The position numbers are program-made. 64,000 nt of DNA from a bacterium (GTDB taxonomy: Bacteria > Electryoneota > Electryoneia > Electryoneales > Electryoneaceae): contig JAIOHU010000137.1 in NCBI GenBank assembly GCA_019912845.1, forward strand, positions 84,765 to 148,764, read 5' to 3'. Positions within the stretch are counted from its first letter, which is position 1, and each line of letters starts with the position of its first letter. This document shows, one piece after another, positions 1 to 9,000 of the stretch.

Positions 1-3000
1 GCAGAAACAAATGGGTCGATGGGTGCACCGAGTGTAAAACGTAATAGGTTCTCAAAGTCAATCAAGTCAGTTGATTTGTTTGGCGCAGTCCATTCGCGAG
101 TTTCGAGGTTTTGAGTTTGAGATTGACCGTAGGCGAGCTTTAGATTTCCACGAAACAACATTTTTTTCGTCAGCTTACGTTTGGCTGTGGTATTAGAGGC
201 AAATGCCCAAAGAAGCGAACCGGTTTCATTGCCCTCCCAGTTATCGCTGAAGGCATTCTGGGTGTGGGTTAGATTCGCTGAGGATTTAATGACCCATCCA
301 TCTGCACGAGTTACCTTTACCTCTTCTTGTGCTGCCTTCCATGCGGTTTCAGGAACTTGAGCGTTCGCGGAGAGGAAGAAGGTTACGCCTGAAATTAAAC
401 AAAGAAAAAGAGATCGAATACTCATGATAACTTACTTTCTCTAATTATTTTAGTAACGTCATTGCTTATATTTGATTCCCAGAAGTATACAATGATTTTT
501 AGCGGAATAAAAAACCAAGGGGTTTGAAGATACAGGACTCTAGAACATTTGTGGAGCATTGAAGAGCAAGTCGAAGAGGACTCAAGATGCAATCACTGTC
601 AGCAAATATATTACACAAAGTTATTGTAATATTCGTCTCCTCGCCCTAAACTACCCCACACAGTTGAGGAGCTTGTGAAGGGGAACATGAAAAAAGTACT
701 TCATATTATCACACGTCTGGATCCGGGTGGATCAGCGGAAAACACAGTGCTTTCCACTGAGCGAGTTAATCCCGAAAGATTTGAATCGTATGTGATTTGC
801 GGGAATGGGTTGACAGGCGAAGGACCACCTGAAAAATATGTCACTCGGCTGAGGGAGAAACTGATCGTTGAACCATCACTGGTAAGACCGATTAAACCAC
901 TTCTGGATAGTATGTGTCTTTTTGCGATCACACGGCATATCAATCGCCTGAAGCCAGATATTGTTCATCTTCATTCTGCCAAAGCTGGTGCGGTGGGACG
1001 AGTGGCAGTGAAGCTGTCAAAGGTTCCCTGCAAGGTTATCTATACACCTCATGGGCATGTATTCAGTGGATATGGCAGCGAATCAGCAAGTAAAATCTTC
1101 ACGTTCGTCGAGAAACGATTGGCTAAATGGACTGATGCAATTGTCGGATTGACAGAGGATGAAATCGTAGCATTCCGAAACTATCACGCTGGCAATGCGT
1201 CGCAGTATTGTGTGATTCCAAGTGGTGTTGAATTGGACAAATATCGTGGCGAAAAAGTATTGGGGGAGAAACTTAAAACAAAATACAATATTGCACCAGA
1301 TAAGCCTCTAGTTGGATTTATTGGAAGATTGGCGTATGTGAAGGGGCCTGATATCTTTCTGGAAATTGCAGCAGCAATTCGAAAGAGCAGGTCGGATGTT
1401 CATTTTCTGCTGGTCGGCGAAGGAGATATGCATAGAGAGCTTGAAGCAAAAGCCGACGAGCTTGGGCTATCGGAAGATATTACCTGGACAGGTTGGCTTG
1501 AAGACCCTGTTGAGGCATATTCAGCGATTGACCTTCTGCTCCTCACAAGCCGGAATGAGGGGATGGGAAGAGTGATTGTCGAAGCGGCATCTGCAGGCAA
1601 ACCAGTAATTGCGCTACGGTCGGGTGGAGTCGAGTATGTGATCAAAGACAAAGTGACCGGATTGTTGTTTGAACACAACGAGTTGGATAAATTTGCCACT
1701 GCGGTAGTAGCACTTCTTGATAATACCACCGAAAGAGAGAAAATGGGAAAAGCTGCTGACGCATTTATGCACGACACCTATAGTGTTGAGAGTATGATCA
1801 AAAAACTGGAAAATCTTTACTGGGGTCTTATGGAGGGAAAAAATGCCTCTGCGAGCGTTTTATAAGCTAGAGAGCGTTGATAAAGACATCAGTACGTCAT
1901 TGCGAGAACGCCTGGCGACGAAGCAATCTCTTTATTATCCAATATTTACGAAAACTTATTAATCAGAAAGACCGCGAAATTTTATAAAAAATCAACGCTC
2001 TCAAGCTATGGGAGAAAACATTTACTATATTTCGGGCTGAATATTTGAATGTTTTGAACAACCATTACTATCCAGGAAAATTAGATAGAACATGAAGCAA
2101 CGACCAGGATTTATACTTCTACAAACGATTCTTATATGCCTTCTATTTTCAGTTTCGAGTCAGGCATCAACACCCACTCATGGACCCGACTTCACAGGGG
2201 CGAAAACCCTTCAAGACAGCGTCCAGATTCTCCGAAAACATTATCGATCCAGATCAACTGCGGAAAAAATCGCATCATTTCCGGGACGATTGATATATAT
2301 ACCTCTCCGCTATACAACAAAAACGCTGAGCTGGACTGTTGCGTATGTAGATGAGACCCGTCTGATCCAGCGAGTGGAAGATATTATCACCTCAGAGGAT
2401 GGACTGAAAGGGCTTGAGCCAACCTACGCCAGTCGCACCGGTGCGGGTATAACAGCGTACTGGAAAAAATTTGCGACTCCTCAATCCGAAGTAAACATGA
2501 CTGTTTCAGCCGGGCAATTTTTTCGTCAGCGTTATCGTATTCAAGCAGAAGATATTGAATTACTTCGGAGCAAACTTCTACTCGACCTAAGTCTGAATTA
2601 CCACATGTATCCAAACGAACGTTTTTATGGAGTCGGAGCCAACTCAGAGAAGAGTGGACTCTCCCTCTATAGCATCGAACAATCGAAATTTTCTGGGGCT
2701 TTTTCGTTTCAGATAAATAAATACTCGAAGTTGGGAATCAAGCCGGAATATGAGGTCAGCAATGTGATGGAAAGCCCTGATACCGCACACCCGACAATGG
2801 TGGAGATGTATACTAACATCCCCGGAATGACTGTAAAATCCAAGCTGGTAAGTGTGGGGTTTGAATTAGGTGTGGACACCAGGGACCATCCCGGAAGAAC
2901 CACGTCGGGAAAAACTATGGACATTTCTTACGGTTTCTACAAAAACCTGGGAGATACGCGCTATAATTTCCAGAAGGCAAACATTGATCTCACCCACACT

Positions 3001-6000: not shown

Positions 6001-9000
6001 TATCGCTTTTGCTGCCGGGAAGATTGTCGAAAAACGGCAGATTGTACAATCAGCCATCCCAACAAACAACACAAATCTAGTTCGTTCTGGAAACCCTGCT
6101 TTTGAAGGTGCCAAGCTCGTATTCAAATCGAGATATCTGCTTTCCATTGTCGCAATTGTCGGGTTGTATGAAATTTTATCCCAGGTGCTCGATTTTCAAT
6201 TCACCTCAACCATCGAACACTTTCTCGATGGTGATGAAATCGGTCATCACTTCGCAACAGTTTATTCGATCACAAACTGGTTCTCTTTCCTTGTTCAGCT
6301 CTTCCTCACCAGCTTCATAATGACCCGATTCAGCCTGACAGCAGCATTATTTATGCTGCCAGCAGCCATTCTGCTTAGTTCGGCGGGATTTATGATCATG
6401 CCAGTCTTGTGGGCAGGAAGCATTCTAAATATTGCTGATAATGGTTTCAGCTATTCTATCAATCAATCTGCGAAAGAGACTCTCTATGTTCCCACGAGTC
6501 GTGATGAAAAATATAAGGCAAAAGCCTTTATCGATATGTTCGTGCAACGTTTTGCGAAAGCAATTGCGGTTGGTGTCAGCCTGCTGATCACAACTATTTT
6601 CAGCGATTTCTCCAGCATACGGTGGCTCTCTCTGTTTACGGTTGCGGTTGTAGTCCTCTGGATGTACGCAGTGCTCTATGCTGGGAGGAAATTTAAGGAA
6701 ATTACAAAAAGTCAAGAAAAACAACCTTGAAATTGCTGGCATTTATAAACACAATCTCATTATCTTAGTGGTTAATTCGCTGACTCCACTCGTCGAGCCG
6801 TAACACACTACTCTGGAAGCACAAGATGAGACGGTATCTTATCCTACTTGTACTGGGTATATGTTCGATTATTCCACTTGCTCGCGCTGAATCCAACACA
6901 GACCTCTATTCACATATCTATCCCAAACCAGGGACACAAGTCGCTCATCCTCACACTTCGATTGGACTACGCTTTGGTGAAAACCTGAAGTTGCCTTTTT
7001 ATCCAGAAAAGGTAGAATTTAACGTTGTTGGTAGCATCAGTGGTGATGTCCAGGGTAAAGTAAAAATTGCTCTTGATAACAAAACAGTCATTTTTACACC
7101 AGACCAACCCTTTCAGTTTAAAGAAGAGGTTGCTGTCCATTTTAGCCCTCATTTACAAACGAAGTCGGGAATAAGTCTCCCACAAGCCGAATTTTCATTC
7201 TTCACAGGCTCCAAGGTATTAACCGAAGAAGAGATTCTTGAAATTTCTGCGTACGATCTGGAAAAAACATTCGGCAATACTTTCCCCAGAACAAAAGAAG
7301 AGTGGAAAAATGCAGGTGGTGTTGGTGCTCTGAGAAAACCATTGCCTGAATTGGATGAGATCGAACTACCACCATCACTATTCACATACACACTGCTGAC
7401 AAACGACAATCCTGCACCGGGAAATTTTGTGTTTGCCCCGAATATCCCCTATCAACCCAACATCGTCTCCTGCAATCTGATCATGAGCAACGCAGGCGAA
7501 GTGTTGTTTTATCACGTCCCCTATGAATCTCGCATGACATTCATGTTCGAACCTCACCCCGATCTTGGGATATTTTCATGGTTCCAATTCCCTGAACGTG
7601 CATACTACCTCATGGATTTGAACTACGAAACCTACGATACTGTCACAGTTGAAAATGGATATATCACCGATCAGCATGAACTGCTACTCCTTGAGGATGG
7701 TAGTATAATGTTGCTCGGGCAACAGGTTGTTCCGGTCGATATGAGCGAGCTGGTTGATGGCGGTAACCCCGATGCACTGGTTGTCGCCGGATTGATACAA
7801 AAGCTGGATGCAGAGCGTAATGTTTTATTTGAATGGCACAGCCTCGATCATTTCAGCATCCTCGATACCGACGACAACTACATTGATCTCACTGGTCCCT
7901 GGATAGACTTTCTTCACATGAACGCAATCAAAGTGGATAACGACGACAATTTCCTCATTTCCAGCAGACACTTCAGCGAAGTCACCAAGATCAACAGTGA
8001 AACAGGGGAAATCATGTGGCGGATGGGAGGAGGAAACGGTAATCAATATGAATTCACCAACGATCCAGGATTTTACCAGCAGCATGATGTTCATCGTCTG
8101 GATAACGGCAGAGTAATGATTTTCGACAATGGTGGTTTTCACTTCCCGCCGGCGACATCCGTGAAAGAATATCTGCTGGATGAAACCAACCTTACCGCCA
8201 CCCTCATGTGGCAGTATGAACCGGAGGGTGCAGTCTGGAGTTCATTTCAGGGAGGTGCAAACCGTCTGGAGAACGGCAACACCGTAATGGCATGGGGAAC
8301 CATTGCAGCAGGCAGCAGGATGGTTTCTGAGGTCGATCCTGAAGGAAATGAAACCTGGGGAGTCTGGTTCGACAACATCAGTGTAAATGTCTACCGTGCA
8401 TTCAAGACTGAGATGCTGGGTGAAGCTTTACGTCCACTCTTGTATGGTGAAGCTGAAACAGACGAGATAATGCTCTATTTTAATCAGTTCGGCAGCGAAA
8501 ATATTGCCACTTACCGTATCTATATAAGCATCAACAATGGCGAATATACATTAGTAGATGAAACAGAATCGACAGATTATCTGGTTTCGGGATTGGAACA
8601 TGGTCAACGATACCGTTTTAAGGCTTCCTCAGTATCGACCGAAGGCGAAGAAAGTCGGCTGTCAGAACACATATTTTACCAGCCAGACTTGGAAACGGTA
8701 ACTGAGATAGCTCTGGAAACGGCGGTTGAATTCCAGATTCTAGATACGTACCCGAATCCCTTCAATTCGAGTATCTCGATTACATTTCACTCAAACAGGC
8801 AGAATGTGAACTTCGAAATTTACGACCTGTTGGGAAGACTGGTTCTATCGAAAAACATGAAATCCTCAAGAACACAGGCGCATACAATTACACTCTCAAC
8901 CAGGGAATTATCAAGCGGTGTTTATTTTTTGAGAGGAACTGCTAGAGGAAGAGTAGTCGATATGAAGAAAATAGTCTTGCTGAAGTAATCAACATAAAAG

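What a model noticed while it worked through the whole genome (the two positions that open the first line are those of the whole stretch)
2092..6730. Exported kinase family co-encoded with an NTT ATP/ADP translocase and an Omp85
A three-gene run encodes an Omp85 barrel (g614), a 564-aa signal-peptide protein with no Pfam family but atypical-kinase motifs (g615) and a stand-alone NTT/TLC nucleotide translocase (g616), and the trio recurs across phyla. I read it as a system in which the translocase exports ATP to the periplasm to feed an envelope kinase that works with or passes through its Omp85. This would give free-living NTTs their first role and open ATP-dependent phosphorylation outside the bacterial inner membrane.
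Evidence so far: K156, E186, D287, N292 and D312-F-G are invariant in 13 aligned homologues. Among 127 full-length 50%-cluster representatives, 117 have a hydrophobic N-terminus, 111 a K-x-D motif, 97 an H/N-x-D-x4-N motif and 86 DFG or DWG. The family has 2705 clusters at E<=1e-3. The nearest named ESM Atlas clusters are Fam20C, HipA_2, CotH and PI3/4-kinase (scores 0.79-0.81; call 104). The gene is in 12 of 41 phylum genomes. Of 79 GTDB loci from many phyla, 68 have the Omp85 and 33 an NTT; among the 50 loci over 9 kb the counts are 49 and 27, and the NTT-HEAT type g251 matches in 31 loci. Passages of PMC5381601 describe free-living NTTs as widespread, with the fusion types of unknown function, and the wor [...]
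(Added by a program. Inside this text positions count along the whole contig: contig position 84,765 is position 1 of the stretch shown here. "Call 12" and the like, gene names such as g00115 and contig names such as C1 are that model's own, and its searches are not shown. The text may have been shortened before it was handed on; [...] marks where a part breaks off. The agent that wrote the report below was given it as the finding of a first reader that could run no searches.)

Follow-up and report, generated by a model that had tools for sequence, protein, structure and literature searches.

The report
ATP carrier fuelling a periplasmic kinase
Many free-living bacteria keep three genes together, an outer-membrane barrel, a predicted exported kinase and a relative of the ATP/ADP carriers of parasites, which likely lets them ship ATP out of the cytoplasm to run phosphorylation in the cell envelope, a job not described for these carriers.

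Summary
The three genes are real. The middle protein, unannotated, has a confident model (pLDDT 93.7) matching CtkA, Fam20 and PI4K-II kinases (Z 14.9-12.6) plus an FN3-like tail; K156, D287, N292 and D312 are kept in 118-122 of 126 diverse relatives, E186 is not (76). The Omp85 lies directly upstream in 61 of 70 loci. Across whole genomes kinase and NTT travel together (17 of 18 NTT-positive genomes in the own phylum; 29 of 35 in a second; weaker, 24 of 63, in a third). The carrier's subclade keeps the substrate residues of plant NTT1. Where this kinase is missing, NTTs often sit beside other predicted exported phosphotransferases (three kinase families and a signal-peptide dikinase). A secreted metallophosphoesterase is a frequent fourth part (28 of 80 loci), absent here. 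Best reading: NTT exports ATP for envelope phosphorylation (0.55). Against: two apparently whole genomes have kinase without NTT, fused kinase-Omp85 proteins often lack NTT, and a characterised NTT favours ATP import. Direction, substrate and activity are untested. The scan reported this system before on other DNA (five notes).

The parts
2092..3423 (+). Omp85-family outer-membrane barrel, 443 aa, signal-like N-terminus, no POTRA hit (noNterm-like)
   Evidence: PF01103 E 4.9e-20; NF047779 68 bits, under its cut-off of 200; directly upstream of the kinase in 61 of 70 loci
3610..5304 (+). Exported atypical kinase-fold protein, 564 aa
   Evidence: AlphaFold2 pLDDT 93.7, pTM 0.93; Foldseek and VIA-align hits CtkA, Fam20, PI4K-II, HipT; 3816 clusters
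3610..3672 (+). Predicted cleavable signal peptide of the kinase (residues 1 to about 21; no lipobox in this copy)
   Evidence: Hydrophobic N-terminus, no later hydrophobic helix (max 19-residue hydropathy 0.71); 119 of 126 relatives hydrophobic against 3 of 126 for an internal control window; 50 of 126 lipobox-like (crude scan, not SignalP)
3967..4968 (+). Kinase domain, residues about 120-453, with K156, D287, N292, D312-F-G
   Evidence: Z 14.9, rmsd 4.5, 239 aligned to CtkA 3akk_B; conservation
4951..5268 (+). C-terminal fibronectin-III-like beta-sandwich, residues about 448-553
   Evidence: Z 8.5, rmsd 2.7, 95 aligned to cytokine-receptor FN3 domains; a common fold, no function implied
5399..6730 (+). 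Stand-alone NTT/TLC nucleotide carrier, 443 aa, with K70, D131, D265, K387 at the places of AtNTT1 K155, E245, E385, K527
   Evidence: PF03219 E 8.7e-21; profile hits solved NTT1 9j3n E 5e-29 and 9j3j E 5e-25; residue counts

Best explanation
The three genes likely form an envelope phosphorylation module: the NTT carrier is predicted to swap cytoplasmic ATP for periplasmic ADP plus phosphate, and the predicted exported kinase would use that ATP at the inner face of its own Omp85 barrel. Shown: gene order, family matches, conserved residues, co-occurrence. Predicted: kinase fold, export by a signal peptide. Inferred: periplasmic side (related kinase domains are fused N-terminal to Omp85 barrels, and the barrel's N-terminus facing the periplasm is textbook knowledge, recalled), direction of transport, and the target. 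My guess for the target is an envelope protein at or passing through the barrel (about 45%), then a glycan or lipid (35%) or a small molecule (20%). In many relatives a secreted metallophosphoesterase would remove the phosphate and return Pi, the carrier's counter-substrate; NTT-HEAT plus a cyclic-nucleotide-binding protein would be a regulated second carrier.
For: Fold and catalytic residues. Omp85 directly upstream in 61 of 70 loci, gap <=50 nt in 57 of 69; duplicated as barrel-kinase pairs (L016, L131). Whole-genome profiles: own phylum 22 kinase, 18 NTT, 17 both of 79; second phylum 31, 35, 29 of 121; third 29, 63, 24 of 151. Carrier subclade of 56 sequences keeps K 53, D 56, D 56, K 56 at the four NTT1 positions; K at the last position in 4 of 98 outside (roles of K155, E245, K527 from PMC3306366 passages). 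Partner swap: of 36 close-subtype NTT loci with >=300 nt upstream, 22 hold an exported-type kinase of four families (this one 9, a 350-aa lipoprotein kinase 10, phosphatase-HipA_2 fusion 2, CotH 1). All 6 NTT-positive genomes of the second phylum that lack this kinase have another predicted exported phosphotransferase beside the NTT-HEAT gene: one 323-aa kinase, five signal-peptide dikinases with the phospho-His motif; all 11 of 121 genomes with that dikinase have an NTT. The host has purD, pyrB and atpD over their cut-offs, so it need not import nucleotides. Phosphate stimulates ADP import in Rickettsia (PMC1951785 passage).
Against: G291 and G351 (one contig as long as the genome; two close relatives) have Omp85 plus kinase with intact motifs and no NTT match at E<=1e-10. 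15 of 47 long-flank loci lack any NTT; 0 of 6 Gemmatimonadota loci have one. Fused kinase-Omp85 proteins occur in 17 of 121 genomes, 11 without NTT, no association (p 0.57). In the third phylum 39 of 63 NTT-positive genomes lack this kinase, and only 3 of 15 such NTT loci examined had an exported kinase-like neighbour. 14 of the 36 close-subtype NTT loci show none. Reconstituted PamNTT1 prefers ATP in/ADP out and suppresses the reverse (PMC1951785 passages). The carrier is only distantly related to tested NTTs (TIGR00769 63.7 bits against a cut-off of 387). The swap profiles were built from the same loci (8 of the 13 non-family hits are self-hits), and the six further dikinase genomes also hold this kinase. 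E. coli has periplasmic ATP without any NTT (PMC7432876 passages).
Confidence: 0.55

Rival explanations
1. Scavenging: the barrel lets external nucleotides in, the NTT imports them as in parasites, and the kinase uses or holds environmental ATP while phosphatases recover phosphate.
For: All tested NTTs of parasites import (PMC5381601 text; PMC1951785). Neighbours include PhoX, PAP2, tyrosine-type phosphatase, Na/Pi cotransporter, metallophosphoesterases. NTT-less genomes with the kinase fit use of outside ATP.
Against: The host makes its own nucleotides and ATP. An importer gives no reason for NTTs to sit beside four kinase families and a dikinase, all ATP consumers with signal peptides.
Confidence: 0.17
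2. Sensing: the set is a signalling module; NTT-HEAT with its cyclic-nucleotide-binding partner acts as a gated carrier or transceptor that reports envelope nucleotide state to the adjacent two-component genes.
For: NTT-HEAT in 33 and cNBD in 19 of 80 loci; receivers, histidine kinases and SpoIIE phosphatases cluster in 29 of 80 loci. Major et al. suggest cAMP control of NTT-HEAT.
Against: The stand-alone NTT here has no sensory domain; two-component genes are common neighbours anywhere and no control was run; this reading does not exclude ATP export.
Confidence: 0.13
3. The kinase fold does not phosphorylate a substrate but acts as an ATP-driven or nucleotide-gated periplasmic subunit of the POTRA-less barrel, or is itself passed through the barrel to the surface.
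For: The barrel link is tighter than the NTT link (71 against 43 of 80 loci). The barrel lacks POTRA domains. Fused relatives have Arg where the beta-3 Lys is expected.
Against: Full catalytic set kept in this family; a phosphatase partner in 28 of 80 loci points to transfer and removal of phosphate; no TPS or POTRA domain hit.
Confidence: 0.1
4. The kinase uses another donor (polyphosphate, PPi or lysis-derived ATP) and the NTT link is a secondary, lineage-bound association.
For: NTT-less genomes with kinase or fused kinase; kin are not independent, so profile p-values overstate.
Against: The link recurs in three phyla and in loci of at least nine named phyla, with close gene spacing (kinase to NTT <=250 nt in 9 of 10).
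Confidence: 0.05

Closest known systems
Fam20C/Fam20B secretory-pathway kinases (PDB 4kqb, 5xom, 5wrr)
   Same: Atypical kinase fold (Z 12.7-13.3), signal peptide, work outside the cytosol and need ATP carried across a membrane (ER ATP/ADP exchanger, recalled).
   Different: 8-10% identity, no PF06702 hit, bacterial, FN3-like tail, tied to an Omp85 barrel, carrier of the NTT family.
CtkA of Helicobacter pylori (3akk) and HipA/HipT kinases
   Same: Best structural match (Z 14.9, rmsd 4.5, 239 aligned; HipT Z 10.8).
   Different: 12% identity; this family has a signal peptide, no antitoxin gene seen, and a conserved barrel and carrier context in environmental bacteria.
CotH spore-coat kinase (5jd9)
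   Same: Bacterial extracytoplasmic kinase; top match of the fused kinase-Omp85 domain (Z 15.2); one CotH sits before the same NTT subtype (L169).
   Different: Not in the listed top matches for this protein and no PF08757 hit; CotH works in the mother-cell cytoplasm during coat assembly (recalled).
NTT/TLC ATP/ADP translocases of Chlamydiae, Rickettsiae and plastids (9j3n, 9j3j)
   Same: Same family; the substrate-site residues map.
   Different: Distant subclade, free-living host with its own nucleotide synthesis, proposed opposite direction. Nearest precedent for export is the speculation on TlcA of 'Ca. Azoamicus ciliaticola' (PMC7969357 passage).
noNterm and 'Metallo' Omp85 subfamilies (Heinz and Lithgow 2014, PMC4104836)
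   Same: POTRA-less barrel; the paper notes that noNterm barrels resemble those fused to PF00149, the phosphoesterase family found here as a separate gene.
   Different: The paper reads PF00149 as a metalloprotease and has no occurrence of 'kinase'. Here long Omp85 proteins carry a kinase-fold domain before the barrel, only distantly related to this kinase (hhalign E 0.011-0.016).

Membership tests
Protein-kinase-like superfamily (PI3K/PI4K, HipA, CtkA, Fam20, CotH branch) | Two-lobed kinase fold | tested here: met
   Model pLDDT 93.7; Z 14.9 CtkA, 13.3 Fam20A, 12.6 PI4KIIa; 20 top rows all kinases
Protein-kinase-like superfamily (PI3K/PI4K, HipA, CtkA, Fam20, CotH branch) | Beta-3 Lys, catalytic Asp, metal Asn, DFG Asp | tested here: met
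   K156 121, D287 122, N292 118, D312 122 of 126; roles assigned by motif spacing, residue-level structural alignment not seen
Protein-kinase-like superfamily (PI3K/PI4K, HipA, CtkA, Fam20, CotH branch) | Helix-C glutamate | tested here: inconclusive
   E186 76 of 126; position 170 E 92, D 25 of 126, Asp in this copy
Protein-kinase-like superfamily (PI3K/PI4K, HipA, CtkA, Fam20, CotH branch) | ATP-dependent phosphotransfer | not testable with these tools
   Needs an assay
Fam20C (PF06702), HipA_2 (PF20613), CotH (PF08757), PI3/4-kinase (PF00454) | Profile match to the family | tested here: not met
   No such Pfam hit at E<=1; atlas scores 0.79-0.81, leads only. It works like them at most; it is a separate family
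NTT/TLC (PF03219) | Profile match | tested here: met
   74.7 bits against a cut-off of 21; solved NTT1 hit at E 5e-29
Canonical NTP/NDP exchangers (TIGR00769) | Score over the curated cut-off | tested here: not met
   63.7 against 387.2 bits
NTT/TLC (PF03219) | AtNTT1 residues K155, E245, E385, K527 | tested here: met
   K70 (one column off in the alignment), D131, D265, K387; numbering offset of 84 read; counts; E385 as a key residue is recalled
NTT/TLC (PF03219) | Nucleotide transport, substrate and direction | not testable with these tools
   Needs uptake or liposome assays
noNterm Omp85 | Omp85 barrel without POTRA domains | tested here: met
   PF01103 hit, no POTRA hit at E<=1; about 110 residues lie between signal and Pfam match, barrel not modelled
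Two-partner secretion (TpsB/TpsA) | TpsB with POTRA domains and a passenger with a TPS domain | tested here: not met
   No POTRA or TPS hit; ShlB only E 0.019, under cut-off

The most novel reading that the evidence does not exclude
A subclade of NTT carriers in free-living diderm bacteria is a general ATP supply line to the periplasm, feeding interchangeable exported phosphotransferases (this family, a 350-aa lipoprotein kinase, phosphatase-kinase fusions, CotH, a secreted dikinase); with the barrel-bound kinase and a secreted phosphatase it forms a reversible phosphorylation cycle at the outer membrane, the bacterial counterpart of Fam20C-type secretory-pathway phosphorylation.
Probability: 0.4. 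Interest if true: 0.92.

Novelty: categorically new. Interest (0 to 1): 0.8.

Why it matters
How ATP crosses the bacterial inner membrane is stated as open (PMC7432876 passages), NTTs of free-living bacteria have no assigned role (PMC5381601), and noNterm Omp85 proteins are poorly understood (PMC11358297 passage). This gene set ties the three questions together and makes them testable with three proteins that can be expressed in E. coli. It also gives a fold to a family of about 3800 unannotated clusters and shows a kinase domain inside long Omp85 proteins.

Tried and rejected
PDB by sequence: no significant hit with protein or profile. Longer Omp85 homologues by word search: none (weak evidence), though fusions were found by genome search. 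Idea that the fused kinase is the same family as this one: not supported (no HMM hit at E<1e-2, hhalign E 0.011-0.016); it is a cousin in the same fold branch. This kinase against the 350-aa family: E 0.015, not collinear. The 310-324 aa secreted gene before five NTT-HEAT genes is beta-lactamase-like, not a kinase. No match of the kinase on plasmids. Complex prediction of barrel with kinase was not available, so binding is untested here. The wide structural library was not searched. No RNA holder listed; no evidence either way. PF03219 search of five NTT-less genomes rang nowhere, controls included, so inconclusive. Promoter and terminator scans near chance, no usable operon bounds. No metallophosphoesterase of the partner type in the own genome, 92% complete. 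Horizontal-transfer signal by GC: none (0.443 against 0.441). Literature searches listed no paper on this gene set; the library lacks most subscription papers, and kinase-family catalogues in supplements (bioRxiv 10.64898/2026.09.18.752743, PMC9758233) were not seen.
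Full report
Observation. The window holds three same-strand ORFs at 2092-3423, 3610-5304 and 5399-6730, with gaps of 186 and 94 nt. 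The first matches Omp85 (E 4.9e-20, no POTRA hit), the second nothing in Pfam below E 0.15 or in NCBIfam, the third the TLC/NTT family (E 8.7e-21). GC equals the genome's. The host genome (4.65 Mb, 92% complete) has purD, pyrB and atpD over their cut-offs, one copy of the kinase, and a separate NTT-HEAT gene with a cNBD gene on contig C24.

The middle protein is a kinase-fold protein. An alignment of 120 homologues gave a model with pLDDT 93.7. Foldseek put Fam20C and CtkA first (E 2e-4 to 4e-4); VIA-align gave CtkA Z 14.9 (rmsd 4.5, 239 aligned), Fam20A 13.3, PI4KIIa 12.6, HipT 10.8, and FN3-like domains for residues 448-553 (Z 8.5). Of the best 150 representatives, 126 were 500-620 aa long and were counted: K156 121, D287 122, N292 118, D312 122; E186 only 76. 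119 of 126 have a hydrophobic N-terminus (3 of 126 in an internal control window) and 50 a lipobox-like motif; this is a crude scan. The family has 3816 clusters at E<=1e-3. Fifteen longer proteins were found, 14 of about 1160 aa with an unannotated C-terminal half.

Neighbourhood. The genome scan matched 604 stretches, confirmed 586 and kept the best 80. Omp85 is in 71, directly upstream in 61 of the 70 with room; stand-alone NTT 26, NTT-HEAT type 33, either 43 (42 with an NTT-domain hit); a secreted PF00149 metallophosphoesterase 28 (26 of 28 ORFs with a hydrophobic N-terminus); cNBD 19. Among 47 loci with at least 3 kb upstream and 6 kb downstream: 45, 20, 26, 32 and 23. Barrel-to-kinase gaps are <=50 nt in 57 of 69 (first possible start, so biased short). 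These loci are the closest relatives, not a random sample.

Whole-genome profiles. Own phylum, 79 genomes: kinase 22, this Omp85 type 23 (both 20), NTT type 18 (17 with kinase). The five kinase-only genomes are 86-94% complete in 210-660 contigs. Second phylum, 121 genomes: kinase 31 (one a contig-end fragment), NTT 35, both 29; of 24 genomes with a stand-alone NTT at E<1e-140, 23 have the kinase. Third phylum, 151 genomes: 29, 63, both 24. Fisher p-values overstate because kin are not independent and each centre genome was chosen for having the kinase. G170 (fusion count) and G252 (third phylum) are flagged unpublished and enter these tallies.

The carrier. A profile of 18 stand-alone NTTs hits only the two solved NTT1 sequences. 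Reading the numbering offset from that alignment, AtNTT1 K155, E245, E385 and K527 fall on K70 (one column off), D131, D265 and K387. K155 and K527 are tied to ADP and ATP binding and E245 to translocation (PMC3306366, passages); E385 is recalled. In a FastTree of 154 NTT domains (160 before duplicates; the window's own protein not included, its 62-69% identical relatives are) a clade of 56 (support 0.999) keeps K 53, D 56, D 56, K 56; outside it K stands at the last position in 4 of 98. So this subclade likely still carries nucleotides with phosphate.

Partner swap. An earlier scan note (e1-9543735) suggested that carriers recur beside other exported kinases; I tested it from the NTT side. 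Of 538 confirmed metagenome stretches 80 were kept. Among 36 close-subtype loci with >=300 nt upstream, 22 hold an exported-type kinase: this family 9 (one weak), a 350-aa lipoprotein family 10 (atlas neighbours with Fam20C 11% and PI3/4K 12% of members, scores 0.91-0.92), a phosphatase-HipA_2 fusion 2, CotH 1; among 22 distant loci, 9. Eight of the 13 non-family hits were in the profiles' own training sets. In the second phylum the six NTT-positive, kinase-negative genomes were examined: G085 has a signal-peptide kinase (PF00454 E 2.7e-5) directly before NTT-HEAT; the other five have a 970-986 aa signal-peptide protein with the PPDK_N domain and phospho-His motif next to or one gene from NTT-HEAT. 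That dikinase is in 11 of 121 genomes, all NTT-positive; the six extra genomes also have the kinase, so this check is weak. An ATP-grasp dikinase is unrelated in fold to the kinases, so the common thread is an exported ATP consumer.

Results against. G291 and G351, each with one contig as long as the genome, have barrel plus kinase and no NTT match; G232, G248 and G329 too, but are fragmented. Omp85 proteins of 855-1271 aa carry a kinase-fold domain (model pLDDT 76; CotH Z 15.2, PI4K-II 14.4, CtkA 13.9), which supports the barrel-kinase partnership, but 11 of 17 genomes with it have no NTT. In the third phylum only 3 of 15 NTT loci from kinase-negative genomes had an exported kinase-like neighbour; four sat beside undecaprenyl-diphosphate synthase. 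Plasmid NTTs of Azotobacter and Pantoea sit among oxidoreductases. PamNTT1 prefers ATP import and suppresses the reverse, although phosphate stimulates ADP import in Rickettsia (PMC1951785, passages).

Mechanism. Best reading (0.55): the carrier exchanges cytoplasmic ATP for periplasmic ADP plus Pi; the kinase, soluble here and lipid-anchored in many relatives, sits under its barrel and phosphorylates an envelope target; the phosphatase, where present, reverses it. An electroneutral exchanger in a cell with high inside ATP would run outward on thermodynamic grounds (inference), if its kinetics allow. Rivals: scavenging (0.17), sensing (0.13), non-transferring barrel subunit or secreted passenger (0.10), other donor (0.05). 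Binding of kinase to barrel was not tested here; earlier scan notes report a predicted docking, which I could not check.

Comparison and novelty. Each part belongs to a known fold or family; the kinase is a member of no catalogued family tested, and the set matches no described bacterial system. Papers seen: PMC5381601 parts 1-3 of 4 (whole main text, supplement not seen); passages of PMC4104836, PMC11358297, PMC13595192 (nothing used), PMC3306366, PMC7432876, PMC7969357, PMC1951785 and bioRxiv 10.64898/2026.09.18.752743 (no occurrence of Omp85 or BamA); PMC9758233 as a listing only. Ten searches listed no description of the set. The scan itself noted the same system five times on other DNA; these are not independent evidence.

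Verdict. Observation confirmed, interpretation partly supported. Interest 0.8; categorically new as a system, unproven in function.

Noticed in passing
L223:3100-6027, L224:3884-6802, L225:12856-15765, L226:2090-5047, L227:9615-12533: Signal-peptide PEP-synthase/dikinase-like proteins of 970-986 aa with the phospho-His motif beside NTT-HEAT and secreted beta-lactamase-like genes; 11 of 121 genomes, all NTT-positive. An exported dikinase is itself unusual.
   Followed up: partly
L120:3537-6110, L121:7890-11702, L122-L128; plasmid records L138, L139: Long Omp85 proteins (855-1271 aa) hide a CotH/PI4K-like kinase domain before the barrel, with Arg at the expected beta-3 Lys; found also in Fulvitalea, Hymenobacter, Persicobacter and Parabacteroides plasmids.
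   Followed up: partly
L140:1766-2872, L144:509-1552, L146:95-1186, L149:827-1897, L164:717-1781, L222:5841-6809: An unannotated family of about 350 aa, mostly lipoproteins, with kinase motifs, directly before NTT genes.
   Followed up: partly
L249:8365-13878; L245:9820-11979; L159:4031-5932: Five tandem signal-peptide kinase-like genes of about 273 aa plus a metallophosphoesterase beside an NTT-HEAT gene; a similar pair in L245; the two fused in L159.
   Followed up: partly
P0123-P0136: Fourteen proteins of about 1160 aa join this kinase to a conserved C-terminal half with no Pfam match.
   Followed up: no
L248, L250, L254, L255: An NTT subtype lies directly after undecaprenyl-diphosphate synthase in four genomes of the third phylum.
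   Followed up: no
L047, L059, L062, L068, L080: NTT fusions of 710-790 aa paired with a membrane-type Ser/Thr protein kinase next to the barrel-kinase pair.
   Followed up: no
L009/L134, L136, L040; L015, L018, L020, L054: Na/Pi cotransporter genes between phosphatase and NTT, and PAP2 phosphatases before the barrel: a phosphate theme around the set.
   Followed up: partly
G000:C24:3397-7099 (L081): The host's second carrier, NTT-HEAT (927 aa), followed after a 490-nt gap by a cNBD gene, behind a two-component pair.
   Followed up: partly
window 1893-1932 and 3474-3500: REP-like intergenic repeats flank the Omp85 gene; the 10-base core occurs 183 times in the genome against about 9 expected, the fuller pattern 101 times.
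   Followed up: partly
window 6826-8988: Arylsulfotransferase (ASST) with Ig, FN3 and T9SS-type C-terminal domain directly after the NTT; not conserved in the related loci.
   Followed up: no
window 675-1865 and 9169-13009: GT4 glycosyltransferase upstream; LuxR-type response regulator and tetrapyrrole synthesis genes (read from the translations) downstream; ordinary.
   Followed up: no
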